From: Candidatus Omnitrophota bacterium | GTDB lineage: Bacteria; Omnitrophota; Gorgyraeia; 2-01-FULL-45-10 | Reading direction: 5' to 3' | Length of the DNA stretch: 64,000 bases | Assembly (NCBI GenBank): GCA_041650805.1 | Contig: JBAZKM010000003.1 | Location: 156,439-220,438, forward strand | In this document: piece by piece, positions 3 to 60,638 of the stretch | How the letters are laid out: each line of letters opens with the position of its first letter | How positions within the stretch are numbered: the first letter of the stretch is position 1 | Position numbers and translations under genes: made by a program | Notes under the pieces: generated by a model | The model's input: the letters and a program-made list of their open reading frames with translations, nothing else | Database searches by the model: none | Told to the model about the DNA's origin: nothing

Positions 3-1814
3 GTCGCCGGCATGGAACCGGAAGAGGCGCTTGCGCGCTACAAGGCCGAAAAACGTATCAAAGGTTATGGTTCTACGCACTATATGAAGATGGCGGGATT
101 TTTGAAGGTCCTCCTCCTCGAACTCGCATCGATAGGCATCCCTGCCGGGCAGGTCGCAGATATTGAAGAAGATTATATGAAGATAACGGCCGGCCGGAAG
201 GATACTAAATATCTCTCCGCGACTCAGGACGAAGACAGTGCGGCGCTTATCTATACGCTTAAATTCAGATGGGCCTATCCCGGAGAAGAGGAGAAGGACC
301 GCGAAATAATATTTATAGAATGCGATATGACGCAGCCGGGCAGGTATCCAGATATTCTGAGAGAGGCAATCCGGGAAAAGTTCAATGCATACTATCAGCG
401 CGCAGGCCAGACGATGGCCGACAGCTATACCGCGTTTCTCGCGGAGGCGGCAAAAGGCATCGCCGCAGGCGGGTTTGTTGTCACTGACGACCGCGCATAT
501 CTCAGGGCTACCGAAGCGGACAATAAGGCGATAAGACGCGGTATCCTCGCTTCTCTCGGTTTCGCGGAACTTCCGCCGTCCGAAGATATGCGTAAGTGGG
601 AAGAGAGGATCCTGGCTGTCAACAGCGGCACCAGATACGGCTGGGACGTGGCGATAGAGACGGGTTCCGAATCGATCGGGAAGGTGTCTGCCTCTCCGGC
701 TGTCGGGGACAACGTCCCGATGGAAACGGAGACCGTCTCTGAAGACACTGCAGGGGCAAAAGCCGAGATTCCGAACTTCCTTTTTAGATCAGACACTACT
801 TTAGGAGATATTGAAAATTATTTTGACGCTTTAAGACAAGCGCTTTCGCAGGAAGGTCTTGATGCCGGTACGCGCAAAAAGATGTATAAGGCCGCCCAGG
901 TGGCTGTGGCGAAACTTAGGGTAGGGCTTGGATTGCTGAGAGACGGCAGGATGCTGGGGCATGAACCGTGCCTGGGTTGTGTCAATAACGGCGGTTGCGC
1001 CGTGGTGGCCGGACTTCTGGCCGGAGGTGTCCGTGGATCCGCTCCGGTTGACGACTGCGGAGCGATGAAGAAGCCGGCTATCTCGAACGATGACATCGGG
1101 TTGGCTATCATTGCGCTTGACACGTTCCTGAACGAAGTTAAGGGCGAGAACCGGCTAGAGACAAAGACGGCTCCCGACTCAAACCTCCAATCTCCAATCT
1201 CCAAGCTCCAAGCCCTCTTAGCATCTTCTCTTCAGTACGAGCGCGACAGGGCCGGCACACCCACAGACATAGTACCCGAAGGCCGTACGGTGATGCTCTC
1301 CGAAGGTCTCTTCGATATGGAGAAGAAGACAGAGCTTGTAGAGCTGATACTTAAGAATAGAGGCAGCAGTATACAGATACTCTCTGTAGATGAGCTCCGC
1401 CGCGGCGCCATAAGCGGGAGGGCCGCGAAGGATAATACCATAATAGTCCTTACAGAGGAGGAATTTAACGACCCGAAGGTCTGGAACGGCTATGCCAAGG
1501 AAGAGCGCGGTATAAATTCAAGCGTCCTGTTGCTGGATGATAATGCTAAATTTATAGGCACGAACTACCTCTACCTTGAAAGTGTCCTGAAACTATCGGT
1601 AGCTATAATGGCGGGCAACAGGGGTGCGGTCGGATCCTTCTATAAGCTCATAGCCGGAAGGCCGATAAGCGATGAGGCGCTCGCATCCCTCGGTATTGAC
1701 CCGGTCACCTTTGCCCTCAATGCGATACTGGAGTTCGATGAGATGCGGGTGAAGGATGCCGATGAGTTCGAACAGTATAAGCGCGCCATGGAGGTATTCC
1801 TGGCGGCGGCATAA
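3..1814 (+). CDS. Hypothetical protein, 5'-truncated at window edge. Its C-terminal ~200 aa is homologous to the C-terminus of the 7094-aa giant protein, so this is probably the tail of a paralogous large protein.
   Basis: Frame is open to the window start. The heptamer-encoded linker NLQSPISKLQA (nt 1184-1216) precedes a domain matching the giant's C-terminus (VLLLDDNAKFIG vs VIVLADNKFVSG; LSVAIMAG vs LAVAIALSS; similar length after the linker). Confidence 0.55.
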   Translation, partial: VAGMEPEEALARYKAEKRIKGYGSTHYMKMAGFLKVLLLELASIGIPAGQVADIEEDYMKITAGRKDTKYLSATQDEDSAALIYTLKFRWAYPGEEEKDREIIFIECDMTQPGRYPDILREAIREKFNAYYQRAGQTMADSYTAFLAEAAKGIAAGGFVVTDDRAYLRATEADNKAIRRGILASLGFAELPPSEDMRKWEERILAVNSGTRYGWDVAIETGSESIGKVSASPAVGDNVPMETETVSEDTAGAKAEIPNFLFRSDTTLGDIENYFDALRQALSQEGLDAGTRKKMYKAAQVAVAKLRVGLGLLRDGRMLGHEPCLGCVNNGGCAVVAGLLAGGVRGSAPVDDCGAMKKPAISNDDIGLAIIALDTFLNEVKGENRLETKTAPDSNLQSPISKLQALLASSLQYERDRAGTPTDIVPEGRTVMLSEGLFDMEKKTELVELILKNRGSSIQILSVDELRRGAISGRAAKDNTIIVLTEEEFNDPKVWNGYAKEERGINSSVLLLDDNAKFIGTNYLYLESVLKLSVAIMAGNRGAVGSFYKLIAGRPISDEALASLGIDPVTFALNAILEFDEMRVKDADEFEQYKRAMEVFLAAA

Positions 1815-2112
1815 TGTAGCTATCAGCCTTCAGCTTTCAGTTTTTTTAGCTTTTGCTGATAGCTGTAAGCTGACAGCTGAAAGCTTAAATTTAGCCCGGG
1901 CTAAGCTGGGATGGAGGGACCTTCCCCCGAGTTGGTGGACTCCATCCCAACCCGGGCTTTTTTTAAGCTATCAGCTATCAGTCGTCAGCTTTCAGCCTTG
2001 AAGTGAGACTCGTGAAGTTTCGTATAGATGGATCCATGGGGAGTCAACGTGCTTTTAAAAAGCACTATTGACTTTATTAGCTGACAGCTGATAGCTGATA
2101 GCTGAAAGCTAC
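1812..2112. repeat. Intergenic heptanucleotide (AGCTNTC) tandem arrays in inverted orientation, flanking an ~80-bp core that contains a palindrome (gtgcttttaaaaagcac).
   Basis: Forward arrays agctatcagccttcagctttcag (1820-1845) and agctatcagctatcagtcgtcagctttcagc (1961-1995). Reverse-complement arrays gctgatagctgtaagctgacagctgaaagct (1855-1888) and gctgacagctgatagctgatagctgaaagct (2081-2110). Confidence 0.8.
1905..1962 (+). terminator. Putative intrinsic terminator downstream of the first ORF.
   Basis: Perfect 10-bp stem tgggatggag/ctccatccca (1908-1917 and 1940-1949), followed by cccgggc and a T7 run. Confidence 0.5.
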
Positions 2113-2560
2113 CGGATGACATGACTTTCTCTTTTAACACTTCCTTATTCTTAGGCGACTTGACGCGGCCGAGGGTGAGGTGGGCGGCAAAAGGGCGGGA
2201 CTCTTTTGCAAATCCGATATTCGATAGCTCGTCATCGATCCGCCCGGCAAGCTCAACAGATTCTTTTGCTCCCTTGTCCAGGCCCACCCATATGACGCGA
2301 GGGGATTCGATCCGCGGGAACGCGCCGATCTCTTTTAAATTTATCTCAAACGGTTTCGTCCGGCTTCCGATATCGTCCAGGATGCTCTTTATCTTCCCGG
2401 CCTTCTCTTCCGTTATCTCTCCCAGGAATTTCAGTGTGAGGTGGATATTGCGGGGCTCGACCCACTTCACGTCAGCGCCGGCATATTTGAGGCGGGATTG
2501 TATCTGCGCGAGGGCGCCGCAAATATCGTCAGATATTTCGATGGCGATGAATGTACGCAT
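1985..2560 (-). CDS. thpR: RNA 2',3'-cyclic phosphodiesterase (2H phosphoesterase, LigT/ThpR family).
   Basis: Two H-x-T-x motifs (HLTLKFLGE and HLTLGR) in a ~190-aa protein. The C-terminal residues FKAES are encoded by the heptamer repeat. Confidence 0.8.
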   Translation of the reverse strand: MRTFIAIEISDDICGALAQIQSRLKYAGADVKWVEPRNIHLTLKFLGEITEEKAGKIKSILDDIGSRTKPFEINLKEIGAFPRIESPRVIWVGLDKGAKESVELAGRIDDELSNIGFAKESRPFAAHLTLGRVKSPKNKEVLKEKVMSSGSFQLSAISCQLIKSIVLFKSTLTPHGSIYTKLHESHFKAES

Positions 2561-2565
2561 TGACC

Positions 2566-3876
2566 CTATACGTTTCTTCTCACAAGCTCCAGCGCCGCCT
2601 GCGATGCCTGGAACTTTATCTCTTCGCGCGTTCCCTTGAATCTGAATTCTTTAACGAGAGCTTTCAGCTTTCTGCTTTCAGCTTTCAGCTTTTTACAATC
2701 GTCCATAGCCAAGGCGATATAAACTAAGCCGATGGGTTTCGACTTTGTACCGCCCGTAGGGCCGGCGATGCCCGTGAGAGATAATCCTATATCGGTGCCT
2801 GCGAGCCGCCTCACGCCTTCTGCCATTTCGAGCGCGACCTCGCGCGAAACGGCCCCATATTTCTTGAGGGTAAAGGGAGAGACACCTAGCATATTCACCT
2901 TGGACTCATTCGAATAAGCGATAATACCCATCATGAAATAACCGGAGCTCCCGCTTACGTTAGTAATACGGTGTGAAACGAACCCGCCCGTACAGGATTC
3001 GGCCGTTGCGATCGTCAGCTTCTTACGCTTCAAGGCATTTGCTACGGCGCCTTCGAGCGTATCTTCGTCATATCCGAATATATTACCCCTTAGCCGCGAA
3101 TGGATCTTACCCTCTATCCTTCCTATCACCCGCGCCGCTTCTCTGTCACTATCGGCCTTAGCCATTATCTTCAGGTCGACCTCGCCGAGCTTGGCGTATA
3201 TCCCGACTGTCGTAGGCGGCTTGAGGGAGAGGAGGTCCTTCGCCTTCGCATTGACCTGCGACTCCGCGAGTCCCGTGAGCTTGATCGTACGTGACCTCAG
3301 GGTATAGGGTATAGGGTTTAGGGCATAGTGTTTGAGCAGATAAGGGAGGATTTCGTGTTCCACCATCGGTTCAATTTCGCGCGGCGGCCCCGGGAGCGCG
3401 ATGATCACCTTACCGCGTACTTCCACGATCAATCCAGGCGCGGTGCCGACGCGATTCCGTATACGTTTTGCGCCTTCCGGGATATATGCCTGGCGGATGC
3501 TATCTCGAGGGGCCTTTATCCTGCGTAGTTTGAAGTAGCCGTTCAGGTCTTTCAGGACCGCCCGGTCCAGGATGAGTTCTCTTCCGGTAAGTTTTGCGAT
3601 CGTCTCTATCGTTATGTCATCTACGGTGGGGCCCAGCCCGCCCGAAGTTATTACGACGTCGGACCGGCCGAGCGCCTTCCGGATCGCCTCGGTGAGCCGT
3701 CCCGGATTGTCGCCTACGGTCGTGTGGTGAAATACGTCGATCCCGGCCTCTGCCAGTTTTTGTGAGAGAAAAGCGGCGTTTGTGTTGACGACGTGACCGA
3801 GCAGGAGCTCGGTGCCTATCGCTACGATCTCGGCGGTCATGGGGGTATTATAGCAGGGGCGAGTGACAGCGGTCAA
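2566..3876 (-). CDS. cinA: Competence/damage-inducible protein CinA (N-terminal MoCF-binding domain plus C-terminal CinA/PncC domain).
   Basis: N-terminal AEIVAIGTELLLG...VVITSGGLGPTVDDIT and C-terminal LTIATAESCTGGFVSHRITNVSGSS. Contains two heptamer-repeat-encoded in-frame segments (KLKAESRKLKAL at 2640-2690; NPIPYTL at 3300-3332). Confidence 0.85.
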   Translation of the reverse strand: MTAVTRPCYNTPMTAEIVAIGTELLLGHVVNTNAAFLSQKLAEAGIDVFHHTTVGDNPGRLTEAIRKALGRSDVVITSGGLGPTVDDITIETIAKLTGRELILDRAVLKDLNGYFKLRRIKAPRDSIRQAYIPEGAKRIRNRVGTAPGLIVEVRGKVIIALPGPPREIEPMVEHEILPYLLKHYALNPIPYTLRSRTIKLTGLAESQVNAKAKDLLSLKPPTTVGIYAKLGEVDLKIMAKADSDREAARVIGRIEGKIHSRLRGNIFGYDEDTLEGAVANALKRKKLTIATAESCTGGFVSHRITNVSGSSGYFMMGIIAYSNESKVNMLGVSPFTLKKYGAVSREVALEMAEGVRRLAGTDIGLSLTGIAGPTGGTKSKPIGLVYIALAMDDCKKLKAESRKLKALVKEFRFKGTREEIKFQASQAALELVRRNV

Positions 3877-3880
3877 GAGG

Positions 3881-3922
3881 TTAACGTTCAGCTTTCAGCC
3901 GTCAGCTATCAGCTTTCAGCAA
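3881..3922. repeat. AGCTNTC heptamer array (cinA upstream/divergent region).
   Basis: cagctttcagccgtcagctatcagctttcagc. Confidence 0.8.
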
Positions 3923-3987
3923 AAAAGTTAAAAAAAAGTGCAATAATATTTGAAATTTTAGCATCTATATAGGTAGAAGGGTAAATG

Positions 3988-4032
3988 GCGACTTAGCTAT
4001 CAGCTTTCAGCTGTCAGCTATCAGCAAAAGAA
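3988..4032. repeat. AGCTNTC heptamer array, forward orientation, on the left flank of the four-helix-bundle gene.
   Basis: tagctatcagctttcagctgtcagctatcagc. Confidence 0.8.
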
Positions 4033-4036
4033 GAAT

Positions 4037-4402
4037 ATGAAAGAGCAGAGATTTAGAAAGCTAGAAGTTTGGATCAAAGCAATGGATTTTGTTGAGATGA
4101 TTTATAAGATCACAAACAATTTTCCGCTAAGGGAGACGTATGGTCTTACAAGCCAATTGAGGCGAGCAACGCTATCTATAGCTCTGAATATTGCCGAAGG
4201 AAGCGGCTCTTCTTCCGATAGAGAATTTAGTAGATTCTTGAATATATCTTTGAGGTCATCTTATGAAGTTATGTGCGGCATCGAAGTGGTAAGGCGACTT
4301 AAGTATTGCGATGACAATGCAATAAGCATTTTATCGGACAGATGTGATGAGATATCGGCAATGTTGACCGGTTTAAAGAGAAAGCTGAAAGCTGACGGCT
4401 GA
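4037..4402 (+). CDS. Four-helix-bundle protein of the 23S rRNA intervening-sequence protein family (the family that includes DGR accessory protein Avd).
   Basis: 121 aa with the family signature ...ATLSIALNIAEGSGSSS...FLNISLRSSYEV. The C-terminus KRKLKADG is encoded by the heptamer repeat. Confidence 0.7.
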   Translation: MKEQRFRKLEVWIKAMDFVEMIYKITNNFPLRETYGLTSQLRRATLSIALNIAEGSGSSSDREFSRFLNISLRSSYEVMCGIEVVRRLKYCDDNAISILSDRCDEISAMLTGLKRKLKADG

Positions 4403-4420
4403 TAGCTGAAAGCTGAGGCC
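4383..4420. repeat. AGCTNTC heptamer array in reverse-complement orientation (right flank of the four-helix-bundle gene), forming an inverted pair with 3988-4032.
   Basis: agctgaaagctgacggctgatagctgaaagctgag. Confidence 0.8.
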
Positions 4421-4430
4421 CGAAAACGCT

Positions 4431-4459
4431 TTACAAGAAGGAGGTGACGCAGGTATAAT
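4431..4459 (+). promoter_or_regulatory. Sigma70-like promoter upstream of recA.
   Basis: TTACAA (4431-4436), a 17-nt spacer, and a perfect TATAAT (4454-4459). The AGGAG RBS lies 13 nt before the ATG at 4534. Confidence 0.5.
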
Positions 4460-4533
4460 ATATGCTCTATATTATGTTATATAAAGAACGGTGTAATTGA
4501 TCTGATCTGACTCAAAAAAAGGAGAGTTGAGCA

Positions 4534-5586
4534 ATGACTAAGACAAAGGTAAAGGAAGTTAAGGAGAGGGAACCGATAAGGGAAGATGCTAAGGATATAA
4601 GCCAGGAAGAGAAGACGAAGGCGCTGGACCTGGCTCTCGGGCAGATAGAGAAGCACTTCGGGAAGGGCGCCATAATGCGTCTCGGGCAGGACTTCAAGGT
4701 CGATGTCCCGGCCATCCCCACGGGTTCCATCGCCATAGACGTGGCGCTCGGCGTAGGCGGGGTCCCGCGCGGCAGGGTCGTGGAGATATTCGGGCCCGAG
4801 TCGAGCGGCAAGACGACGCTGACTTTGAGCATCATCGCGAATGCCCAGAAGGCAGGGGGGCAGGCGGCATTCATAGACGCGGAGCATGCGTTCGACCCGG
4901 CGTACGCAAAGAAGATAGGCGTGAACCTGGATAACCTTCTCATGTCACAGCCGGACACGGGCGAGCAGGCGCTCGAGATCACCGAGACGCTGGTGAAGTC
5001 GAACGCGATAGATGTCGTAGTTGTCGATTCTGTCGCGGCGCTGACGCCGAAGGCGGAGATAGAGGGCGATATGGGCGAATCGCACATGGGACTGCAGGCG
5101 AGGCTGATGAGCCAGGCGCTCAGGAAGCTCTCAGGGTCGATCTCCAAGTCGAAGACCTGCGTCATATTCATCAACCAGATAAGGGAGAAGATCGGCATCA
5201 TGTTCGGCAACCCCGAGACGACGCCCGGCGGCCGGGCGCTCAAATTCTACGCCTCGGTCAGGATAGACCTGCGGCGTATAGCGTCTCTGAAGAAAGGCGA
5301 TGATGCCGTCGGTAACAGGGTCCGCGCCTCTATCGTTAAGAACAAAGTAGCGCCGCCGTTCCGGAAGGCGGAGTTCGATATTATGTTCGACGAGGGGATC
5401 TCCAGGGCCGGCAGTGTGATAGATGTGGCGGAGACGCTCGGCATATTGACGAAGAGCGGTTCGTGGCTCATATACGGCGAAGAGAAGATAGGGCAGGGCA
5501 AGGAGAACGCGAGGACCTATCTCAGGGAGAACCCGAAGGTCCTGGCGAAGCTCGAGAAGGAGATCAGGGAGAAGGCGCTGAAATAA
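4534..5586 (+). CDS. recA: Recombinase RecA.
   Basis: Walker [24 protein letters not shown], and full-length colinearity (350 aa). Confidence 0.97.
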
Positions 5587-6065: not shown

Positions 6066-6069
6066 GTAT

Positions 6070-9875: not shown

Positions 9876-9888
9876 AGGAGCTGATACG

Positions 9889-19979: not shown

Positions 19980-20906
<927 letters not shown>

Positions 20907-29170: not shown

Positions 29171-29275
29171 ATGTTTATCACACTGAAACAATCTAATAAT
29201 ATCGCAAGGCGACTGGTATCGGTAATACTGATCGCCTCTTTTCTATTTACCAATTCCGATCTCTCTTTGGCCCGG
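29171..29275 (+). other. N-terminal signal peptide / membrane anchor of the giant protein.
   Basis: MFITLKQSNNIARRLVSVILIASFLFTNSDLSLAREIF: positively charged n-region, a 15-aa hydrophobic core, and an A-x-A-like site. Confidence 0.6.
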
Positions 29276-32200
29276 GAGATATTCTCTGACCGTACAACCC
29301 TCTCGCCGGCCTCCCGCTTCAACCCGCTCGCTAAGATAAGAGAGAAGGATGACGGCACGTTCGATATTGTCCGGGATGAGGAAGGGCGAAGAGACCTCAA
29401 GGATGGATTCAAGGCCGATGCCGAATTCCTGTATCTATCCCGACTGATAGGCGATGCCCTGGGCGATGCGGTCCGTATGAAATTGACCTACGAAGGATTG
29501 CGTATCCTGATAGAGAGGGACCTGCGCGACACGAAGACCGAATTCGAGCATTTTGATCCCGCCAGGCTATACAGAAGAGACGATTCCTATTATCTCCCGT
29601 ACAAAAGCGCCCTTACCGGCGGCGATCTGCTGCTGCGGTACTTTGTTAGCTCCACCGGCCATAAATTCCCTGACGCCGTAAAGGTCGCCGACCTCGGTGA
29701 GGGGGATTTTGTCTGGATGGAGACGATATCTGCGGATGGCATAGAGGCCTCGGCGCCAAATGCCGTGCTTCTAAAAAGGCCGGTCGATATCATAGATCCC
29801 GGGGAGATAAAGACGGGAAGGGATCTGGTCCGTATCATAGATGAGGTCCTGAGGGCGCCGCATCCCGCAGAGGCGCTTCAAGCCGCCTGCCATTCGCTGG
29901 CCATAACCGGTCACGCTATACTTGCCGGATACGAAGAGTATCTTAATGACGAAGGCCTTGGCGTAAAGAATGCCTTTTCGGATATGCTCAGGAAGGTTGA
30001 GTCGGGAAAGCTCGTTTGGACCAAAGACGATTTCGGCGAATTCAAGAAGCTGGTGAAAAAGATACCCACCATAGATGATCCCAACGAAGACCTGTTTGTG
30101 GATGTCCTGACAGATTTTACCCCGGACATGATACGGTTATTGGCAAATAGCGGCTACGATCACAGTTTTAACCTCCAGCTCACAAAGGGGTGCGGTAACC
30201 AGTGCCTAATATGCGGTGTCTCCAAGGCGCGCGGCGCGATGCACCACATACCATTCCCCATAGCGGCGAAACTGCTTCGTAAAGTCAACAGGTACCAGTC
30301 TAAGCTGATGCCGTATTTTGACAGCGATGCGCTCCATTATCGCGACAGTGTAGTAAACGCCACATATGCGGATATAGTCAGTTTTGCCAGGAGATCCGGT
30401 TTCACATGGGTCCCTACGGTTACTCACGGCATAGGCGGGGCAAAGGCAAAAGGATCCGGCGACATCGTCAGGGAGGCGCGCAATTATCTTACCATAAGCG
30501 TTCATGTTTATCATCATCCGGTGATGGAGTACGTAAAATCGAAATTGGAAGGGAAGATGACCGATGAGGCCCTGGCCAAGAGGAGAGAGTCCATCATAAA
30601 CATGTACGCGGATAGATTTGTCTATCTTATACAGGGGGCGATCGATTCAGGAAAAGGGTTCCAGATAAGGTTATTCCGGCCGAATCCCGACGTCGAGTAT
30701 ATGCTTCAACGCCACCTGTACGCATATGCTGCCGTAAAGGAGATCCAGGCTATACAGGATGAAGTATGGAGCCGTGTAAAAGGACGTATACCTTTGGACA
30801 TGGATAGGACCAGTGATACCCACGTTGTCTGGATCGATGACGCCGCCCGTTTCCTGAAAGATCTTGGAGTGCCGGAGGATATCATAGCGAATACTCAAAA
30901 GGCATATGACGATAACATTTATAACGGCGCAAGCATAGTAGGGGATCACTATTCCCTCATAGCGGGGCCTGATGGCTCAGTCACCATGCAGGTCAGAGAA
31001 GGGAATAACCTGCGATTCAGGACGGTGGGTGAGATGTTTGAAGGGCCCGCTTCCGAAGGGTTTGGATCGTTTGTACAGGCGCTCAAGATCATATCGTCCT
31101 TCGATTACGATAATCCTAAGTCATCGAGAAATTCGTATGTATCTTCCGCTAAGATGAAAGATATCGGCACGGATATCGAGGGCCTTATCCTGAGAGAGTT
31201 GAGGAAGGAGATCGCCCGTAACCCTTATTCAGACGAAGAGGTGGCTGAAAAAGTTAAAGAGATAACCGTTTACCGGACGATGGGGGATTTTTATAAGCTC
31301 TTATTTAGCTTTTACCTAAACCAGGACGAGATAAGGCGGCTATCGCATGATCCGACAGAAGGGGGTGCCGCCTTGCTGTATCAGCGCCTTAAGGATGTCC
31401 CATTCCCCGTGAAGATGGAGTTCAATATTGTGATGCAGGATAACGAATTATGCGTCTTCAGTTATTCCCCCATGGACGCAGGCAGGCCGGGATTCGAAAA
31501 GGACCTTTACAATTCTACACGTCGTTTCGAACTTCCGGTCCGCGCGTTTGCCTCACGGTCTGAAGCTGCGCAAAGGCCGCCGTTCCCGGGCCACGGTCCG
31601 GGCTCGCCGCACATTACTCAGGGACCGGATGAGCCGGCACCGCTGATCTCCCGGGTAGATGAGCTCTGGGGCGACAGGCCCGTCAGGGTGCGAAAGATCA
31701 TAGCCGCTATACTGGGAGATATGAGAGGTCCTTTGACCGCGATCTCTGTAAGACAGGCAGCGGGCAATATCCTCCGCGATAACCTGATGAATGCCAAGGC
31801 CCGTCAGGGTGCCGTAGATGCGATAACATTCCGCAAATGGATCTCGAGAACCGGCCTTATTTCGGACCTTCTTGCTCCGGCAGATATCGGGGAATCGGAC
31901 GTAGCCGAGATATTTCTGCGTCACGGTCTGAAATTCGACAGGGACCTGCGGCGCAGGCTTTGCGGGCCGTTCCGCGATGAGATATCGCTTATAAAAAAGG
32001 CGATGAACGCTCTTCAGGAAGCTTATGACCCGCTACTTTCGGATACGTCTCCGGACGAAAGGTCCAAACAGGAATTTGAGGAAAAATATGAATTCAGGGC
32101 ATATGAAAAAGGCACTTCATTTGTGCCTGTTCTGGGTATCCTGTGGGCGGTGAGAGACCAGGATGTCGTATCAATATCCTACCGCATCGCAAACCGGATA

Positions 32201-50200: not shown

Positions 50201-50455
50201 GGCAGTGCCTTCCTCGCCGGTGTCGATACCGCTAACTTTACGACGGTTTCATACCGGCCGCAGATAGACCTGCTCGAGATGCTGGCTGTGGCGATAGCGC
50301 TCTCTTCCGATAAAGAGCTCATGACCGACTCCGAGATAGAGAAGCGCCTCGGTTTCAGGCGCATCAATAAGCGCATGATCGTCTACCTGCCCGAAGCACA
50401 CCCCATAAACACCGAAGAATACCGCTTCCAGCTGGTTGCTCTCCAAAATGCATAA
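29171..50455 (+). CDS. Giant 7,094-aa multi-domain protein. Order: N-terminal signal/anchor, radical-SAM motif, GNAT, SAM-MTase, wHTH + degenerate Fic/Doc, kinase-like, HD, zincin-like peptidase, ~35x 31-residue repeats, AT-rich module, Rossmann-like region, and a conserved C-terminal domain.
   Basis: Single uninterrupted 21,285-nt ORF in GC-rich DNA. Domain motifs are listed as separate features. Recurring linker motifs delimit the modules. Confidence 0.9.
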   Translation: MFITLKQSNNIARRLVSVILIASFLFTNSDLSLAREIFSDRTTLSPASRFNPLAKIREKDDGTFDIVRDEEGRRDLKDGFKADAEFLYLSRLIGDALGDAVRMKLTYEGLRILIERDLRDTKTEFEHFDPARLYRRDDSYYLPYKSALTGGDLLLRYFVSSTGHKFPDAVKVADLGEGDFVWMETISADGIEASAPNAVLLKRPVDIIDPGEIKTGRDLVRIIDEVLRAPHPAEALQAACHSLAITGHAILAGYEEYLNDEGLGVKNAFSDMLRKVESGKLVWTKDDFGEFKKLVKKIPTIDDPNEDLFVDVLTDFTPDMIRLLANSGYDHSFNLQLTKGCGNQCLICGVSKARGAMHHIPFPIAAKLLRKVNRYQSKLMPYFDSDALHYRDSVVNATYADIVSFARRSGFTWVPTVTHGIGGAKAKGSGDIVREARNYLTISVHVYHHPVMEYVKSKLEGKMTDEALAKRRESIINMYADRFVYLIQGAIDSGKGFQIRLFRPNPDVEYMLQRHLYAYAAVKEIQAIQDEVWSRVKGRIPLDMDRTSDTHVVWIDDAARFLKDLGVPEDIIANTQKAYDDNIYNGASIVGDHYSLIAGPDGSVTMQVREGNNLRFRTVGEMFEGPASEGFGSFVQALKIISSFDYDNPKSSRNSYVSSAKMKDIGTDIEGLILRELRKEIARNPYSDEEVAEKVKEITVYRTMGDFYKLLFSFYLNQDEIRRLSHDPTEGGAALLYQRLKDVPFPVKMEFNIVMQDNELCVFSYSPMDAGRPGFEKDLYNSTRRFELPVRAFASRSEAAQRPPFPGHGPGSPHITQGPDEPAPLISRVDELWGDRPVRVRKIIAAILGDMRGPLTAISVRQAAGNILRDNLMNAKARQGAVDAITFRKWISRTGLISDLLAPADIGESDVAEIFLRHGLKFDRDLRRRLCGPFRDEISLIKKAMNALQEAYDPLLSDTSPDERSKQEFEEKYEFRAYEKGTSFVPVLGILWAVRDQDVVSISYRIANRIADDYRKARKAGRESIFPLIRNTRIRARLLERTAVDIPLAIHIFNDELDSRERGFFLGLIREYFGGEMVSAVSAVMSGRGMDDAVALAGRDRQFIIFSINFFLKSVFFYKSVDMGQLEKLIPDIPVNMGYEDILTAGIRERFSSIGPGTAWAETPEAGGLIGTFGRVNPETAFVPIGKFWPRDRIAYLTEDNSFALMRRRGGHAGYAGVAVDEEDRELLSEGGAVIPGTSTDGSRFVLIQRMIPVGERKVFAWKLKERGISAYSLPLGFITIERDGRRYRDYYPHLDCCLNVIARDFTEDGRVKILIDPLYYKSVKDDPEFRRLLREQGFLPDDVIIISEEDSGLNLANFAETISGDGRRILIFNAGAASTLSRIPLKAGSYEELPEPLYLLAQSGGLQRCASNLFPREEVPLPGAPSYKVDGTAFPPDVIEAIYRSFSDDGRFSRFLEAFRKCGIEIVQITANRYSDKTEALKTMLPYEAAIYVAPREGTEEVLNEILKGFEVILADLRSNWGGIIIDAGPDGENGIRERPPFPGHGPGTPHIAQGPDEPEDLLSPEPQAPGSKPITDAERLNKLDRKLSYIALGVSVPAFLAMLAGIMMGSDIGVAIVGVSSIIGSAALGTTALLRVKWILEPGERKETGGTTPVRVDITEERSERIEVTIERVPGEESEIHIVAKDPEGKEAGRATYMIRSEDAIQLLSIDVFESKKRRSGIGEQLMLRIKDEMVEAGRSEIFLFCLQSNAGAIRFYDKMGERLGMAMTKEDAIFHDQPPAAYKITYRITNDKRQKTNNGNPARNSGPDTITIKPVPPGTFPDLDARGTPQDRPGDQEKRRAQQQKLAVQLLQKEFARKEALVKYGIYTAAELAVVEGLYRRFAVGEDLSHFSPYEKVFIWQYMILMDMHSSSFRMLEEEVNRLAEDLEIDGLYVGFEWNDHMAPEDKVRTVENNISIRPGMRMLDIGCGKGSVIIELARRHAGVEFIGIDANPRNISNALTRLMEMGPEAPRNVRFHMLDCREPVADKAIPRRGIPYGEGAFDVISLMEGVFDEAHSSDSAERLLWREAIRVAGKDGGIVAFFGLAGKNKFEESLPEGVYAEMKDNTFFSIGGRNTRYYFPSWTREDEPSPYRREKTEFCVWRLALRHGEELPGHQVTMSPVASGLQTETAPGPSQPVQQDLPFETEGTPPPASDPSSGRRTQGNFGPGAMNVDEPLGRTSPLSEHAQETLFTARLHFSGEGFTAEDLLGKVASSGTGRILSDLDELERNGYIEAVGSGKTPGFRLTAEATFALITMEYNLSPIYIGELGRRGVDLPADIDNPDELASHIIEFTKGDARIDAKTTLHMILDLTNLLEWEYVYLQALEMKKAGKNWALIDTVGLEEALDKLRPLVSRRLLEVQDLEVGWIGHGLEAARTPPETDDFQKAASLVNRYVTGGLAAGEEELKEIHSVVSEHLKVFSAGRSRNVRRGEYRAYEDAYRDLTYFPLAEKVPDAMAAVFRLIKVPEFMGLHPVEQAAITFYLIHNIQPFDNGNTRTASLFMDCLLMKNNYPPFVISEYNERRFHEVIKFMRRPEPERFNEGSMTQSEFVNDPMKLLGSPDALAKIRRYAREFTAFLAEETARELVLQPPSPGSQTQGSPGHQVTRSPVRGDEGRLAEEAASASGTPDLSGYEPRWVTGVKEVGSDPAGPYEIFIDHGRNYGNYTDVNEALYNGKRYMAKWVSGHGEREGLIASQARVLNYLKDVLSDADLARISMPEYIQLEDGTRMLLFEKFTAGSTMNDIMESGFLALSNKRASLLRAVREIACAVKALHDVNVYHGDITLKNVWVFEDGRIKLFDFDFATMGTAGLRQRGLNLWFVSPERLERAFGKKEATIDKKAAVTDEVCSIGVIMTAVLTGELLFNHVVTGEKAGRKRPMRYDPRTALNAVGVPGRIVEVAVRALADSKDRFQTVDELIRALDGSETPSEPIGKTSPDAGKETFPKDPEPVSGTPETAALRDAIEAAIPQGIGFYKKRNPGQPDETTRRKIDEQNSLAEPLLTRTIERLRAHYPDIAEMLADLYPRVLPYYIAGMDVNYIQHHATVIDFASEIAVGERLDEKESAILILAALFHDSGNGLTTLSKVTATAVHNMPVTTPGERAAREGVIEQAVAFRKEHMEIGAGIVREIIEPYRARAPDILPGEDVSEIERLVLHHDDLKIPLWQENVDTTWLTAKDDRSLQFLMEADALWMLTPLGIRSDIDKSEGEPLSPSAQASFNVGLFRKWKELYDRAFDAETVNGYGFRDGTLLRSHAAYLIYQRLIEEAANDPENVPGRRTTPGNLGPGAMNIDEPFEARGPGPAPKTADRRPADTDFVEKVLDTQISMHGLQRLFDEGLLDKRIALAWYRALVSKGGLTDKELSDEIDGEMDYMPPDELYGALKDRGLNPKNRIVAIEADRVLKGYFDHLRREHGIVLPYGYLSIEDNVVFMPKRKLKRYYDAPKAVTDSFLHKVIISNEFKGKELLTYLIHEGLHLNAVGFYLQGVGGMRGSHLNEGMAEYLTRDAMEFMGVDGGSGLWRKTTAEWKVKAVRIVESMIRYMGERSTLIRAFFNGGIDTLPIIPMTLAKAVIKEKTQVYYDGNKMPFSAARRVIREKTPKDIPDDEIYILAEHDRNGYMLISRYTAAEGNEKGPGLQIVLSSIGVIPEDAPALLSVEAVTGYRALDMSDSMSLLEFFTALERATRTASESDLFFAAGKWESLKASVTAPTLSRVVLEITPYIERGLSLAMERCKAAKREKDDHLSAEAEFDDTADMDEDELAEHFAEKALNGEMPKGLENIFEPQDDDEGGSASDVTVRTASYWRTTPGNLGPGAMNIDEPFGSHKDGPLSIEEAVKRIEALLEDAPRQRSISTKEAVTNVLMSIARDGEFVFNRKQANRVASVRRFGDKLPLLKFLVTYKIKTEDGDRYVFNGGHVAIISPSSRTNQDAERLIVALKDMGITEGAHLAIITASSRSEDEIKKIVPFLRAHGITANSHIASILKSSRDEAEIGGLVSFLGDLGITEPAHITRILTTSRGRKEIEGMVTMLKGLGIVKGAHISYIVQTSRTEAEVKNLIDFLDGLGIRGGFAVASIVHSAREKDDISAIIETLRAAGITEDAHIAMILMSKRTGDEIAGILAKLKKHKIADGVSCSIILRSSRKEEDIEGIVKALKKCGMKSIHIALVISASRTKDQIEKAIRSLALYEIKNPSHIASILACSRSNKEIRMLVSMLVACGITDGAHIALIASTKRSTSEVRRLTGHLRRSGITHPFHIAAIIQSSRPEQGIMSLIEMLKASGITGGASIAMISGSSRSEAEISSVVSSVRSLGIVNSCNIATVVASSRKEEDIERLIRSFRRAGFEEPAHISLMIHSSRTEGEIAEIIAGLDAINISEHSAVARIIHSSRSKAEIEDLVKLLVENNIEKDGHIARIIGSSRPKVEVRSIIKTLKALGIVKPFDMAFIIQGKRSEDDIKEIISMLRKHGINKGFHIAVAIHCSRPKEGIERLLKTLAGQGITGGLDTALVIRSTRDEKEIPDIIETLKAAGIRKSFYLAEVLASSRTKSEIREIVRTLKALGITDAGSIAIVLKGSRSKKAINEMVPVLKAAGFSDERDLAHILLSGRTLAEINVTVSRLKACGIIKSSHIAHLLRTDRPIEEMERIIASLRDSGIRDASAMTRILMGGRSASEIKGLISELCSVSITTPKNIAVIARSDRSTKEMKELVGILNAAGIRDETAVTRIIACDRSNNEIRSVIPALRSLGITKEFHMAMVISTSRTVEDIKKVVEAARSSGINESFHLALVAGSSRRLSDIEGLFRSLEAEGITDQYHKACVVHSERTNAEISSGIALLKSIGVKAPAKIARLLSTSHSDEEFRSTVTLLEGVGITDINRIISILELRRPPAEVGDAFELLRQAGITDNTMSFPIIKRRSAEEIEGIVSLLKYKGIVNTGEIAIVLRSKRSREEIEITLKMLQRFGISESVPRALIIKSRHTAREIEDLIPALRQAGITRSAQIAGILYGEGSKEEIEEKITQKTLPEKEKAAPAPAEVMAQDMAEEMSAQEETMVAPEPVGVSKGKRVMPTLYKTLQSVGLLPKDAARLPADIEKRYSALSITDSMLFLKFFTIMKRVIAQYADGREEAPDEDVFVVASEAWRNIGAIKAGSDVHAIAQSIKGPAEDALAAAMRAIEKAREETARKNLMEERATEEEDEDVLAEQFAESALRGEVPEDLEEALEEVRGELTEQSSAEVLPEPDSELSMEESDAPSAGRTTPGNLGPGAMNIDEPFEAQGPQPTAQSPELPVPDSGLQARPFADVTVTPVVGEAAGVTLRGLYSIPAIPDETTAQPFFSVIMHERYYKEFTEKVVDFLRALEESMNTPKETREEKSKVLQKKYSLHDAMTKSLHKWAEYTLQNTNADGPLYAPGKGFSLYAIILACNTISDFYPQFTHIKPEEWLCYEIASYGKLPLNEKNRNILIKANGYLERVLADEDRTNQICRDLYGEDYRVINLVLKWLGNIAEITAHPAERNKARNFLTYFIKQLLRENRDILEAFASFVFDRFEKAKKQRSGSEENHGIKIAIVLTGAEHLGQWLRIKSKLLGKEIAFQDLSLTLSMFMHLEYINDAGDSGSYILGQSSKESLKQSLHEIGITPSDTRHLILVDTGFEGSINKYIVYPLKEMGVSEELLLLFRKDERSVNTYGFNQEQGWEGSEKRLRKLAHIIDDGFEASTLSPTQFSDITDKKLASTQRPWFCELIKREIELFAYTTSEGLSATQPDIAEDDLVGAAPLTARPFALFPAAGATAEVSTTPAGGVPQSDVSQTVQQIAPETFSGPIGKASPDAGEDTFPKDSEAVSVANEEQEGLIQLYRRLYPVVFEFADQAGIVTGDKVVVIGTHVDWQCGIACALKGADVISIGLESDEDEREFKAADEVRESIEKNGGQYRIMRPYDYLKVPVPESSIKIIVAQNVIDDPEANSPAIVRKMLRDVQDGGYIAVSFLCDEQIWYTNIKRQAERLGFILQESVFADFTGMSGTSYIFRVIKNAPGLTAQSSQPTAQSPVLQAQGSPVTSHQSPVQERGQTPSALSSASAETLEAKSGISKVMLWRRDSTGEGGVVEAADDEIRETAQEIAAGKYKFTYLITGNILSLGIVEDDKKTHHDKVKKPNIEDRPLKGDKMDGQFLILPWEIERRTYAEWREQYIRFARFLIEQGILASEPLQVALKASGVIPKIFEPDPMPETLGELANMSLSNEIAPSSQLPTPNSILQAPSPNLTLQAQESTVHGPRSTKGAPVVVEDKEYGVTLLDDYYTYLPRETYGLSLLGTKVGISNTRYAVVRLKDTTINVATHHSAGYIFPVMAAKDGLINGDEVLLHIDFARHPDDADLILSPPPLGNDIGEHLAFLGPYKDKGFLGPENYLTALKKAFPDLVPVFLKDEDDGHYSWGGIEWAYQGSVIDFLAQIQDKTGGARFPWLARGKIASIDLDIFRCLKDDTTKTEQLLDAIADVAAPAKLIMIFTSPGYLDKEFAITLAERLVEKIARNLQDLAGNDRDVSVNGEGRGQGSQVLVKDIQKRGQTPSTEEHLTRLDNVYFGAFPYNGDTSYVKNEESHVRVPRSRPGRGDMLVDVNSATIFEYGLIESKIKTSPLKVMVSDETDGKVANCHQGEAILIKTENANDVLGTLFLEECDAIGGRTVIKGEPYLFLYHKNDSFRNKSFSTFVQWLLKMSDSVQDLECCISMRRGLDERCAAEYENFQETIADLSSLYPGVRVHAVRSRQEPGLFGSMVVSKYGVTCRTAKYTGRTRRDDATADWANAEVAMVPFAVGSSPKTQEPVFGAHDAQTPNSQPPTPNLTLQAPNSKLQANWPVRLVDTIKIRAMEAKEEGQKLIVGVGTSWIPGYAEQGEEHNGLNPILSELRNLRALDNIVFVDAPDNELAQELIKKADGSKTDYKNVIVLADNKFVSGELKASTEIEKAALDGFRSLANGSAFLAGVDTANFTTVSYRPQIDLLEMLAVAIALSSDKELMTDSEIEKRLGFRRINKRMIVYLPEAHPINTEEYRFQLVALQNA
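30150..30800 (+). other. Radical-SAM-like region of the giant protein.
   Basis: NLQLTKGCGNQCLICG contains CxxxCxxC (Cys codons at 30191, 30203, 30212). Confidence 0.45.
31573..31637 (+). repeat. Linker motif A, copy 1: RPPFPGHGPGSPHITQGPDEP.
   Basis: Near-identical at nucleotide level to 33790-33852. Confidence 0.85.
33790..33852 (+). repeat. Linker motif A, copy 2: RPPFPGHGPGTPHIAQGPDEP.
   Basis: ccgccgttcccgggccacgg...cagggaccggacgaacc. Confidence 0.85.
34165..34495 (+). other. GNAT N-acetyltransferase domain of the giant protein.
   Basis: Motif A RRSGIGEQLM (R/Q-x-x-G-x-G/A), with the beta-strand pattern IHIVAKD...LLSIDVF before it and AIRFYDKMG after it. Confidence 0.6.
35040..35470 (+). 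other. Class I SAM-dependent methyltransferase domain of the giant protein.
   Basis: Motif I MRMLDIGCGKGSVIIELA; acidic post-I residue in FIGIDAN; motif II-like AFDVISLMEGVF. Confidence 0.6.
35776..35830 (+). repeat. Linker motif B, copy 1 (divergent): RRTQGNFGPGAMNVDEPLGRTSP.
   Basis: Related to the three near-identical copies at 39121, 40712 and 45055. Confidence 0.8.
35870..36900 (+). other. Winged-helix + Fic/Doc (Fido)-like domain with a degenerate active-site motif.
   Basis: ILSDLDELERNGYIEAVGSG (wHTH), then AITFYLIHNIQPFDNGNTRTASLF. The canonical HPFx(D/E)GNGRxxR has H->Q and G->T (nt 36769-36798). Confidence 0.45.
37250..37990 (+). other. Protein-kinase-like (ePK/APH superfamily) domain of the giant protein.
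   Basis: AxK YMAKWV; catalytic-loop-like HGDITLKNVWV; DFG-like KLFDFDFA; SPERLE. Confidence 0.55.
38086..38165 (+). repeat. Linker motif C, copy 1: PIGKTSPDAGKETFPKDPEPVSGTPE.
   Basis: Near-identical to 46738-46815 (PIGKASPDAGEDTFPKDSEAVS). Confidence 0.8.
38380..38800 (+). other. HD-domain phosphohydrolase region of the giant protein.
   Basis: LAALFHDSGNG (H..HD) and LVLHHDDLKIP. Confidence 0.55.
39121..39180 (+). repeat. Linker motif B, copy 2: RRTTPGNLGPGAMNIDEPFEA.
   Basis: ~50-nt near-identity with the copies at 40712 and 45055. Confidence 0.9.
39480..39960 (+). other. Zincin-like metallopeptidase (Peptidase_MA-like) region.
   Basis: HEGLH (39706-39720), with NEGMAEYL 25 residues downstream (HExxH + EGxAEY). 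Confidence 0.45.
40712..40765 (+). repeat. Linker motif B, copy 3: RTTPGNLGPGAMNIDEPFG.
   Basis: actacaccgggcaacctcggccccggcgcgatgaatatcgacgagccgttc. Confidence 0.9.
41030..44340 (+). repeat. Array of ~35 tandem 31-residue repeats (~1,100 aa) within the giant protein.
   Basis: Consensus G-I-T-x-x-x-H-I-A-x-I-L-x-S-S-R-S-x-x-E-I-x-x-L-V-x-x-L-x-x-x. The Arg is invariant in nearly every unit. Positions 3-7 and the three residues before the Arg are hypervariable. Confidence 0.85.
45055..45125 (+). repeat. Linker motif B, copy 4: RTTPGNLGPGAMNIDEPFEAQGPQPTAQSPE.
   Basis: Followed by a heptamer-encoded PELPVPDSGLQA linker. Confidence 0.9.
45290..46610 (+). other. Compositionally distinct AT-rich module inside the giant ORF (probable acquired cassette).
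   Basis: ~1.3 kb of visibly lower GC (A/T-rich codons, K/N/I/Y-rich peptide), bounded upstream by linker B copy 4 and downstream by linker C copy 2. Confidence 0.6.
46738..46815 (+). repeat. Linker motif C, copy 2: PIGKASPDAGEDTFPKDSEAVSVANEE.
   Basis: atcgggaaagcgtctcccgatgcgggcgaagacaccttcccgaaggat. Confidence 0.8.
49840..50455 (+). other. Conserved C-terminal domain of the giant protein, shared with the C-terminus of the ORF at 3..1814.
   Basis: Begins after the heptamer-encoded linker PNLTLQAPNSKLQA; colinear similarity to the ORF1 tail. Confidence 0.5.
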
Positions 50456-58427: not shown

Positions 58428-58434
58428 CTAAATA

Positions 58435-58510: not shown

Positions 58511-58527
58511 CAAATAAGCTATATACT

Positions 58528-60632: not shown

Positions 60633-60638
60633 CATTCA

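What the first reader, a model, noticed from the sequence alone, without database searches (positions are those of the whole stretch)
3..1814. Second family member: the window begins inside another large ORF whose C-terminal domain matches the giant's C-terminus
Both proteins end with a heptamer-repeat-encoded linker (NLQSPISKLQA vs PNLTLQAPNSKLQA) followed by a ~200-aa domain with colinear similarity (VLLLDDNAKFIG~VIVLADNKFVSG; LSVAIMAGN~LAVAIALSS). A conserved C-terminal domain on otherwise different large proteins is the pattern of a secretion/sorting domain, as for C-terminal secretion signals in type I/IX systems. It could equally be a shared anchoring domain. It also shows that the giant gene belongs to a paralogous family.
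Basis: partly seen in the sequence, partly recalled or inferred. Interest (0 to 1): 0.7.

Follow-up and report, generated by a model that had tools for sequence, protein, structure and literature searches.

The report
Shared end-caps on Omnitrophota giant proteins
The window opens inside a second giant gene whose last ~190 residues form an undescribed end domain found across Candidatus Omnitrophota; its claimed match to the 7,094-residue giant's end is mostly a DNA-repeat artefact, and the two proteins are linked through their starts instead.

Summary
Bases 3-1814 are the 3' end of a 6,252/6,263-aa gene (NCBI MFA5146368.1, Candidatus Omnitrophota MAG).

**Linker.** The shared peptide (NLQSPISKLQA / PNLTLQAPNSKLQA) is real. 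It is encoded by CTCCAAN heptanucleotide arrays that litter this genome, so it is not evidence of protein homology.

**C-terminal domains.** The two ~200-aa domains are no more similar than shuffled controls (z = -0.5). Profile-profile comparison is only marginal (P ~0.02-0.03).

**What is there instead.**
- ORF1's last ~190 aa define a domain family ("C-cap A") with 85 clusters, ending within 2 aa of the C-terminus in 94 of 95 hits. It has no Pfam, NCBIfam or PDB match.
- The predicted fold is alpha/beta (pLDDT 85), with a nearly invariant ...E-x-Φ-L-Φ-A-A-COOH end.
- The 7,094-aa giant ends in a different domain ("C-cap B", 6 members).
- Both giants start with a related Sec-like leader (0 of 120 shuffles reach the observed score). 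One protein combines the giant-type start with the ORF1-type end.
- Caps are conserved while the middle is entirely replaced, even between two probably adjacent paralogues.

No secretion genes lie in the window. A sorting role for the C-cap is plausible but not shown.

The parts
3..1814 (+). 3' end (603 codons plus stop) of a 6,252/6,263-aa giant gene (ORF1; NCBI MFA5146368.1, Candidatus Omnitrophota MAG)
   Evidence: Open frame. 100% identical to P0002 residues 5651-6252. Accession.
1185..1211 (+). Heptanucleotide array (CTCCAAT/G, ~3.9 copies), translated in frame as ...LQSPISKLQA. It forms the junction between cargo and C-cap A.
   Evidence: Tandem-repeat; DNA. Similarity between ORF1 and its paralogue P0003 begins exactly after ...KLQA.
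1239..1811 (+). C-cap A: a ~190-aa C-terminal alpha/beta domain ending ...MEVFLAAA-COOH
   Evidence: Family HMM matches ORF1 residues 413-603, E 5e-60. 85 clusters. AlphaFold2 pLDDT 85.2, pTM 0.79. Conserved end motif.
1985..2560 (-). thpR/ligT-like 2',5' RNA ligase family gene; part of the conserved neighbourhood downstream of C-cap A genes
   Evidence: Pfam LigT_PEase, E 5e-31. Same arrangement in L002 and L008.
2566..3876 (-). cinA; part of the conserved neighbourhood
   Evidence: Pfam CinA, MoCF_biosynth and CinA_KH. cinA follows the C-cap A gene in L001, L002, L007 and L008.
4534..5586 (+). recA; part of the conserved neighbourhood
   Evidence: Pfam RecA, E 1e-139. recA also follows in L001.
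29171..50455 (+). 7,094-aa giant gene (NCBI MFA5146399.1). Cargo chain: GNAT, methyltransferase, Fic, protein kinase, HD, and ~37-aa repeats.
   Evidence: ORF list, translation, Pfam, accession.
29171..29758 (+). N-cap of the giant: Sec-like leader, a ...TLSPASRFNP motif, and a ~150-aa domain
   Evidence: BLASTP to P0033 residues 1-177, E 2e-11. BLASTP to P0001, E 9e-6. hhalign to the family-A N-cap P = 3.5e-4, with 0 of 120 shuffles reaching the score.
49768..49833 (+). Heptanucleotide arrays (AACTCCC, then CTCCAAG), translated as ...TPNSQPPTPNLTLQAPNSKLQA. They form the junction between cargo and C-cap B.
49844..50452 (+). C-cap B: a ~200-aa C-terminal domain of the giant, in a separate small family (P0001, L010-L013)
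   Evidence: The AlphaFold2 model is low-confidence (pLDDT 54).

Best explanation
ORF1 and the 7,094-aa giant are two members of an Omnitrophota-specific class of "capped" modular proteins.

Architecture:
- A conserved N-terminal leader that looks like a Sec signal peptide: a basic n-region, a ~15-residue hydrophobic core, then ...A-W-A|Y-P-D.
- A short ...L-A-P-x-S-F-F motif and a ~150-aa N-domain.
- A highly variable chain of cargo domains, from 0 to more than 6,000 aa. Most are cytoplasmic-type enzymes and regulators.
- A conserved ~190-200-aa alpha/beta domain at the exact C-terminus.

ORF1 carries the common C-cap (type A). The giant carries a rarer type (B) that is at best a very distant relative.

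Caps are kept while cargo is swapped by recombination. In this genome the cargo/cap joints sit on in-frame heptanucleotide arrays. That explains why both C-caps are preceded by the same peptide.

Shown: the architecture, the two domain families, the relatedness of the leaders, the cap/cargo mosaicism, and the repeat origin of the linker.

Inferred: the proteins are exported by Sec, and the C-cap, with its invariant free ...L-Φ-A-A-COOH end, is then used as a docking, sorting or retention module rather than as an enzyme.
For: - ORF1 is the tail of a 6,252-aa protein.
- C-cap A: 85 clusters, 60 of them at E <= 1e-10. 94 of 95 hits end within 2 aa of the C-terminus.
- 8 of 9 genome loci are Candidatus Omnitrophota MAGs.
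- No Pfam, NCBIfam or PDB sequence match.
- Terminal motif: Ala at -1 in 91/94, Leu at -4 in 91/94, Glu at -7 in 89/94.
- 35 of 85 members show the ...W-A-Y-P-D leader. Several have that as their only hydrophobic segment.
- ORF1 and P0003 share only their caps, and their similarity begins exactly at ...KLQA.
- Positional orthologues lie next to thpR-cinA-recA in four other MAGs, with unrelated cargo.
- Links from family B to family A: related N-caps; the P0033 chimera; P0001, a 345-aa cargo-less version of the giant; the same order of predicted strands and helices; the tail motif P-[IVMFL]-[DN]-x-x-[ED]-[LFY] in 5/6 B and 12/84 A tails, against 3 hits in 276,621 background residues; terminal Ala in 5/6 B.
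- Heptamer arrays give identical peptides in unrelated genes and are absent from all 13 related loci.
Against: - Homology of C-cap A and C-cap B is not established: pairwise z = -0.5, no HMM hit, hhalign P = 0.033 and probability 1.5%.
- The type-B model is low-confidence (pLDDT 54).
- The tail motif was defined after seeing both families.
- Export is inferred from sequence features alone; no signal-peptide predictor was available.
- Cargo domains such as RpiA, Rpe, sugar-acid kinase, histidine-kinase ATPase, methyltransferases, Fic and sigma-70-like regions need cytoplasmic cofactors. That argues for a cytoplasmic location unless they act inside another cell.
- No secretion genes lie in the window.
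- Conserved synteny with housekeeping genes fits a core cellular role as well as an effector role.
- Many short family members may be fragments from contig ends.
- Adjacency of MFA5146367 and MFA5146368 is inferred from consecutive accessions only.
Confidence: 0.55

Rival explanations
1. The two C-terminal domains are the same domain (clear paralogues), and it is a secretion signal of the type I or type IX kind.
For: - Both domains sit at the extreme C-terminus, behind the same linker.
- The order of predicted strands and helices is similar.
- hhalign P = 0.033, and 3 of 150 shuffles reach the score.
- A shared tail motif and a terminal Ala.
Against: - Pairwise similarity is at shuffle level, and the family-A HMM gives no hit on the giant.
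- The linker is a repeat artefact.
- No match to the T9SS C-terminal domain or to RTX models.
- The predicted fold is a three-layer alpha/beta sandwich, not a beta-sandwich or a disordered tail.
- An N-terminal Sec-like leader is unlike type I substrates.
- No ABC/MFP or Por genes lie in the window.
Confidence: 0.15
2. The capped proteins stay in the cytoplasm, tethered to the inner membrane by the N-terminal helix. They act as scaffolds that string metabolic and regulatory enzymes together in a very small cell. The C-cap is then an oligomerisation or regulatory domain, not a sorting signal.
For: - Cargo is dominated by cytoplasmic-type enzymes: RpiA, Rpe, a PLP-dependent enzyme (NCBI's name for the paralogue MFA5146367.1), sugar-acid kinase, Pgl-like, LOG-like, CMP kinase, NTP-transferase, histidine-kinase ATPase, and HTH and sigma-70 regions.
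- The locus is conserved next to core genes thpR-cinA-recA.
- The C-cap has a flavodoxin-like fold, as many cytoplasmic regulatory domains do.
Against: - The leader has its basic residues before the hydrophobic stretch and acidic residues after it.
- The hydrophobic stretch is only ~13-15 residues, followed by an A-x-A site. This is the signature of a cleaved signal peptide with the C-terminus outside.
- Complete replacement of cargo between close paralogues is unusual for core metabolism.
Confidence: 0.25
3. The resemblance between the two giants is entirely coincidental. They are unrelated large genes that both acquired the same genome-wide repeat.
For: - The linker is repeat-derived.
- The C-domains are not significantly similar.
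- BLASTP between the two whole proteins finds only one weak kinase-kinase match.
Against: - N-cap profiles align at P = 3.5e-4, far above all 120 block-shuffles.
- P0033 joins the giant-type N-cap to the ORF1-type C-cap.
- Both giants carry the junction peptide T-I-T-x-x-P-P-G-T-F-P.
- Both have the same overall layout.
Confidence: 0.05

Closest known systems
Type IX secretion C-terminal domain (T9SS CTD) proteins of Bacteroidota
   Same: - An N-terminal Sec-type leader combined with a conserved domain at the extreme C-terminus.
- Very diverse cargo in between.
- Restricted to one phylum.
   Different: - The T9SS CTD is an ~80-100-aa beta-sandwich. C-cap A is a ~190-aa predicted alpha/beta domain with no match to the CTD models.
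- No T9SS genes were seen in the window.
- Cargo here consists of cytoplasmic-type enzymes.
- A conserved N-domain is also present.
MARTX toxins (multifunctional autoprocessing repeats-in-toxin)
   Same: - Very large proteins with conserved N- and C-terminal regions.
- These regions bracket an array of effector-like enzyme domains that is reshuffled between strains.
- Repeated short junction peptides lie between modules.
   Different: - No RtxA repeats and no cysteine protease domain were found.
- MARTX toxins use type I secretion and have no Sec leader.
Omnitrophota giant proteins described so far (Archaeovorin-type and Dockerin-type; West-Roberts et al. 2023, bioRxiv 10.1101/2023.11.21.568195; Seymour et al. 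2023, PMC10066038)
   Same: - Same phylum.
- Multi-kilo-residue ORFs with few annotated domains.
- Thought to relate to a host-dependent lifestyle.
   Different: - Those proteins are described as having many transmembrane helices, SecA_DEAD domains, C39/S8 peptidases, adhesion and carbohydrate-active domains, and a neighbouring type II-like secretion locus.
- None of these features was found here.
- The papers call giant ORFs "poorly conserved". In term searches of these papers I found no mention of a conserved C-terminal or N-terminal cap.
Short tandemly repeated heptanucleotide sequences (STRR) of heterocystous cyanobacteria (from my own knowledge, not tested here)
   Same: Genome-wide tandem arrays of 7-nt units belonging to a few sequence families.
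   Different: - A different phylum and different repeat units.
- Here the arrays are often in frame inside coding genes (alaS, hisH, hisF, cinA, thpR and the giants) and encode loops and linkers.

Membership tests
C-cap A (new family defined here from ORF1's last ~190 aa) | A significant match to the family HMM that ends at the protein's C-terminus | tested here: met
   ORF1 matches at residues 413-603 of 603, E 5e-60. 94 of 95 family hits end within 0-2 aa of the C-terminus.
C-cap A, applied to the 7,094-aa giant | A significant match to the family HMM at the C-terminus | tested here: not met
Capped-protein class (shared N-terminal leader and N-cap) | Basic n-region, short hydrophobic core, then an ...L-[AS]-P-x-S-x-F motif about 15-25 aa later, related at profile level | tested here: met
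   Family-A N-caps against the giant/P0001/P0033 N-caps give hhalign P = 3.5e-4. None of 120 block-shuffles reaches the score (31.1 against a maximum of 19.8). ORF1's own N-terminus comes from P0002, not from the window.
T9SS C-terminal sorting domain | Match to the CTD models, with a beta-sandwich fold of ~80-100 aa | tested here: not met
T9SS C-terminal sorting domain | T9SS machinery genes present in the genome | not testable with these tools
   Only 64 kb of the 224-kb contig is available. None were found in the window.
Type I (RTX-type) secretion substrates | Nonapeptide RTX repeats, no N-terminal signal peptide, adjacent ABC/MFP genes | tested here: not met
   No RTX/HemolysinCabind hits. 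A Sec-like leader is present. Neighbours are his, trp and aro genes, nusA and infB.
MARTX toxins | RtxA A/B/C repeats and a cysteine protease domain (Peptidase_C80) | tested here: not met
   Neither appears in the Pfam scans of either giant.
Archaeovorin/Dockerin-type Omnitrophota giants | SecA_DEAD domain, numerous transmembrane helices, neighbouring type II-like secretion locus (as described in 10.1101/2023.11.21.568195) | tested here: not met
   No SecA_DEAD hit. A hydropathy scan finds only 4 hydrophobic segments in the giant and 6 in ORF1's full protein. No secretion genes lie in the window.

The most novel reading that the evidence does not exclude
Omnitrophota have a phylum-specific two-cap delivery system. 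A conserved Sec-type leader with its N-cap, together with a C-terminal alpha/beta cap whose free ...L-Φ-A-A-COOH end is read by a dedicated receptor or protease, would mark chains of cytoplasmic-type enzymes for export and delivery into host or prey cells. Short nucleotide repeats (heptamer arrays in this genome) would serve as the recombination joints that let cargo be swapped between capped genes.
Probability: 0.2. Interest if true: 0.85.

Novelty: new variant of a known kind. Interest (0 to 1): 0.6.

Why it matters
The papers I consulted describe Omnitrophota giant proteins as poorly conserved and of unknown function (PMC10066038; 10.1101/2023.11.21.568195).

This work suggests that a large subset, from about 1,000 to about 7,000 aa, shares two conserved end modules and an almost invariant free C-terminus. 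That gives three practical handles:
- HMMs that can list every capped protein and its cargo in any Omnitrophota genome.
- Defined sequences for localisation and processing experiments: the A-W-A|Y-P-D site and the C-terminal A-A-COOH.
- A concrete model for how giant genes grow, by cargo insertion and exchange between fixed caps.

There is also a methodological warning. In genomes rich in short tandem repeats, identical peptides in different proteins can be pure DNA-repeat products.

Tried and rejected
EXTENDING THE CONTIG
- An exact 40-mer from the window start was not found in genome contigs or metagenome contigs.
- The look-up of encoding contigs found no record for cinA, recA, P0002, P0003 or P0087.
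- The upstream part of ORF1 is therefore known only as protein (P0002/P0087), and P0003's DNA was not seen.

HOMOLOGUE SEARCHES
- The word-indexed search with whole ORF1 gave nothing. Only the exhaustive representative search found the family.
- The word-indexed search with the giant's C-terminus found one protein, both as a single sequence and as a 2-sequence profile. The metagenome scan added four loci.

STRUCTURE
- The AFDB50 fold library was unavailable.

OTHER CHECKS
- PDB sequence search found nothing.
- HMMs of the last 32-110 residues gave only scattered weak cross-family hits (best E 0.0065).
- A search of the paper library found nothing on heptanucleotide repeats in Omnitrophota.

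REJECTED IDEAS
- That the linker is a conserved family feature. It is absent from all 13 related loci.
- That the repeated junction peptides are family-wide. They occur only in this genome's giants.
Full report
**1. What is at 3-1814**

Frame 3 is open from the first full codon to a stop at 1812-1814, giving 603 codons. The rest of the window is an ordinary bacterial chromosome. From recA (4.5 kb) to about 63 kb the identified genes are on the + strand; thpR and cinA upstream of recA are on the - strand. Identified genes include thpR, cinA, recA, alaS, the his and trp operons, lepA, lepB, pgsA, plsY, nusA, infB, trpS, scpAB and aro genes. A 7,094-aa ORF lies at 29171-50455.

An exhaustive HMMER search with the last 203 residues of ORF1 found a 6,252-aa protein, P0002, that is 100% identical. 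ORF1 corresponds to its residues 5651-6252. The cluster look-up gives these names:
- ORF1 is NCBI MFA5146368.1 (6,263 aa), from a Candidatus Omnitrophota MAG, on a 224,400-bp contig.
- The window's giant is MFA5146399.1.

The first claim, that the window begins inside another large ORF, is therefore correct.

**2. The linker**

NLQSPISKLQA and PNLTLQAPNSKLQA do match (9/14 identities, E 0.013). At the DNA level both are tandem arrays of the heptamer CTCCAAN, at 1185-1211 and 49768-49833.

Heptamer and octamer arrays of a few unit families are scattered across the whole window. They occur between genes and in frame inside genes. Because 7 x 3 = 21 nt, an array read in one frame gives a 7-residue periodic peptide. 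As a result, unrelated proteins share identical peptides:
- STVHGPRST occurs in hisF, in an NTP-transferase and in the giant (GGTCCAC arrays).
- PIPYTL occurs in cinA and alaS, with PIPYT in the NTP-transferase (AGGGTAT arrays).
- SFQLSA occurs in thpR and hisH.

None of 13 related loci from other genomes contains such arrays. Other family members have no comparable linker before the domain. The linker match is therefore a property of this genome's DNA repeats and not evidence of protein homology.

The array is still informative as a joint. ORF1 and its paralogue P0003 are 94% identical from ...KLQA|LLASS to the end and are unrelated immediately upstream of that point.

**3. The two ~200-aa domains**

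Direct comparison fails:
- BLASTP gives no alignment beyond the linker.
- Local and global alignment scores are at or below the mean of 1,000 shuffles (z = -0.54 and -0.24).

Profile methods also fail or are marginal:
- An 84-sequence HMM of ORF1's domain does not hit the giant with all filters off.
- hhalign gives P = 0.43 against a 2-sequence profile of the giant's domain and P = 0.033 (probability 1.5%) against a 6-sequence profile.
- Three of 150 column-shuffled controls reach the observed score.

Some weaker features are nonetheless shared:
- The predicted order of elements is the same through the first two-thirds of each domain: strand-helix-strand-helix-strand-helix-strand, then a long helix. 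The model of the giant's domain is poor, however (pLDDT 54).
- A tail motif, P-[IVMFL]-[DN]-x-x-[ED]-[LFY], lies about 10-25 residues from the end in 5 of 6 type-B tails and 12 of 84 type-A tails. It occurs only 3 times in 276,621 background residues. The motif was defined after seeing both families.
- The last residue is Ala in 91 of 94 type-A proteins and 5 of 6 type-B proteins.

**4. What ORF1's domain is (C-cap A)**

- Distribution: the search found 85 clusters at 50% identity (60 at E <= 1e-10), in proteins of 101-6,932 aa. 94 of 95 domain hits end within 0-2 residues of the C-terminus.
- Taxonomy: 8 of 9 loci recovered from species-representative genomes are Candidatus Omnitrophota MAGs. 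The ninth is a 3.2-kb contig binned as Planctomycetia.
- Known families: no Pfam, NCBIfam or PDB sequence match.
- Structure: AlphaFold2 with a 25-sequence alignment gives a confident model (pLDDT 85.2, pTM 0.79). It shows a four-stranded parallel alpha/beta unit followed by a helical part.
- End motif: [MV]-E-x-[YFL]-L-[IVA]-[AS]-A-COOH, nearly invariant.

**5. What the giant's C-terminus is (C-cap B)**

It has one database relative, P0001 (345 aa; E 6e-17 pairwise), and four metagenomic relatives, L010-L013. All six proteins end with this domain.

P0001 also matches the giant's N-terminus (E 9e-6). It looks like a cargo-less version of the giant, with the N-cap joined directly to the C-cap.

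**6. The real link between the two giants**

- Leader: 35 of the 85 family-A proteins start with a conserved leader. It has basic residues, a ~15-residue hydrophobic core (...IRIIAAILIAAFLAQ), then D-I-A-W-A|Y-P-D, and about 10-15 residues later ...K-L-A-P-x-S-F-F.
- The giant, P0001, P0033 and L012 have the same layout, for example ...SLA|REIFSDRTTLSPASRFNP in the giant.
- Profile comparison of the two N-cap sets gives P = 3.5e-4. None of 120 block-shuffled controls comes near the score (31.1 against a maximum of 19.8).
- P0033 (1,013 aa) has a giant-type N-cap (BLASTP E 2e-11 over 190 aa). It also has a type-A C-cap (E 1.5e-18). Its cargo is a histidine-kinase ATPase.

The caps are therefore interchangeable modules on one scaffold class. 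The statement that the giant belongs to a family with ORF1 holds at that level, but not through the C-domains.

**7. Caps fixed, cargo free**

ORF1's full protein and P0003 share only their ends:
- residues 29-243 (69% identity);
- the last ~205 residues (94%);
- the 4-6 thousand residues in between are unrelated.

P0003 is MFA5146367.1, the accession just before ORF1's, so it is probably the adjacent gene.

In four other Omnitrophota MAGs a type-A capped gene lies directly upstream of cinA: of thpR(-)-cinA(-) in L002 and L008, and of cinA(+) in L001 and L007, followed by recA in L001. The window has ORF1, then thpR(-), cinA(-) and recA.

Full-length capped proteins of about 2,000 aa in other Omnitrophota loci (L003, L007, L008, L009) have both caps and unrelated cargo: LOG-like domains; HATPase with CMP kinase and NTP-transferase; TPR; or nothing recognisable. 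L007 and L008 lie at the cinA-linked locus.

Cargo elsewhere in the family includes sugar-acid kinase, Pgl/NagB-like, RidA, GT2 and sigma-70 region 2. ORF1's own cargo includes HTH domains, methyltransferases, kinases, Rpe and RpiA. The giant's cargo includes GNAT, methyltransferase, Fic, protein kinase and HD domains.

**8. How it probably works**

Shown: the architecture, the two domain families, the mosaicism and the repeat-encoded joints.

Inferred: the leader has the marks of a cleaved Sec signal peptide. Its basic residues lie before the hydrophobic core, the core is short, and an A-x-A site follows. Many members have no other hydrophobic segment. These proteins are therefore likely to be exported.

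A globular domain fixed at the exact C-terminus, with an invariant non-polar free end, is then most simply read as a docking, sorting or retention module. This would be analogous in logic to the T9SS C-terminal domain, but it is not a member of that family. No catalytic-type Cys, His or Asp is among the nearly invariant positions.

The main difficulty is the cargo. It consists of enzymes that need ATP, SAM, acetyl-CoA or sugar phosphates. That fits either delivery into another cell or a cytoplasmic, membrane-tethered scaffold. Delivery into another cell would be consistent with the host-dependent lifestyle proposed for the phylum (PMC10066038). I rate the export/sorting reading somewhat above the cytoplasmic-scaffold reading, but neither is demonstrated.

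No secretion-system genes lie in the 64 kb.

**9. Comparison with what is known**

The capped proteins lack the features reported for Archaeovorin- and Dockerin-type Omnitrophota giants: SecA_DEAD domains, many transmembrane helices, and an adjacent type II-like secretion locus.

Term searches of the two giant-gene papers and the phylum survey turned up no mention of conserved terminal caps, and giant ORFs are called poorly conserved.

MARTX toxins are the closest analogy in layout, with conserved ends and a reshuffled effector array, but their defining repeats and protease domain are absent.

**10. Verdict**

The finding points to an apparently undescribed, phylum-wide pair of end modules on large Omnitrophota proteins. 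It also shows a clear example of DNA repeats mimicking protein similarity.

Noticed in passing
window 3299-3333 (cinA), 6845-6925 (alaS), 10829-10930 (hisH), 12307-12335 (hisF), 19985-20011 and 20501-20531 (NTP-transferase), 2078-2110 (thpR): Heptanucleotide tandem arrays sit in frame inside housekeeping genes. In alaS an inverted pair, (AGGGTAT)4 ... (ATACCCT)4, replaces a variable loop just before the conserved ADHIR motif. The same array families give identical peptides in unrelated proteins, for example STVHGPRST and PIPYTL.
   Followed up: partly
window 1818-1889, 1966-1996, 3887-4025, 4380-4416, 58434-58511, 60637-60699: Intergenic arrays of the same 7-8-nt unit families (AGCTTTC/GCTGAAA; GTCACCA/GGTGACC) often occur as inverted pairs just after genes. 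They could form long hairpins and may act as terminators. The 47-nt stretches at 58448-58494 and 60637-60683 are 96% identical.
   Followed up: no
window 35777-35850, 39128-39201, 40706-40779, 45056-45129 (giant residues ~2210, 3327, 3853, 5303): A junction peptide, R-T-T-P-G-N-L-G-P-G-A-M-N-I-D-E-P-F, recurs four times between cargo modules. By eye, all five differences between copies 2 and 3 within the core peptide are synonymous (DNA), which suggests selection on the peptide. It might be a processing or docking site. It is found only in this genome's giants.
   Followed up: partly
window 31574-31635 and 33788-33849; 38072-38151 and 46733-46812: Two further repeated junction peptides occur in the giant: R-P-P-F-P-G-H-G-P-G-[ST]-P-H-I-x-Q-G-P-D-E-P (twice, 89% DNA identity) and G-K-[TA]-S-P-D-A-G-x-[ED]-T-F-P-K-D (twice, 88%).
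   Followed up: no
giant residue ~1819 (window ~34625); ORF1 full-length residues 3489, 3820 and 4663 (outside the window): The junction peptide T-I-T-x-x-P-(V)-P-P-G-T-F-P-[ED]-x-[ED]-x-R-G occurs once in the giant and three times in ORF1's full protein. This hints at sequence exchange between the giant genes of this genome.
   Followed up: partly
window ~40950-44300 (giant residues ~3930-5050): A long run of about 30 tandem repeats of ~37 aa (G-I-T-x-x-x-H-I-A-x-I-x-x-S-S-R-S-x-x-E-I...). Pfam scores part of it as mTERF-like (E 2e-14).
   Followed up: no
window 4500-64000: Every identified gene from recA onward is on the + strand. GC skew is positive in all 2-kb windows from 4 kb onward and AT skew in all but one, giving a purine-rich coding strand.
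   Followed up: no
L001, L002, L007, L008 (positions ~6000-9900 in each): Conserved neighbourhood across Omnitrophota MAGs: capped large protein, then (thpR), cinA and (recA), while the cargo of the capped protein differs completely between genomes.
   Followed up: partly
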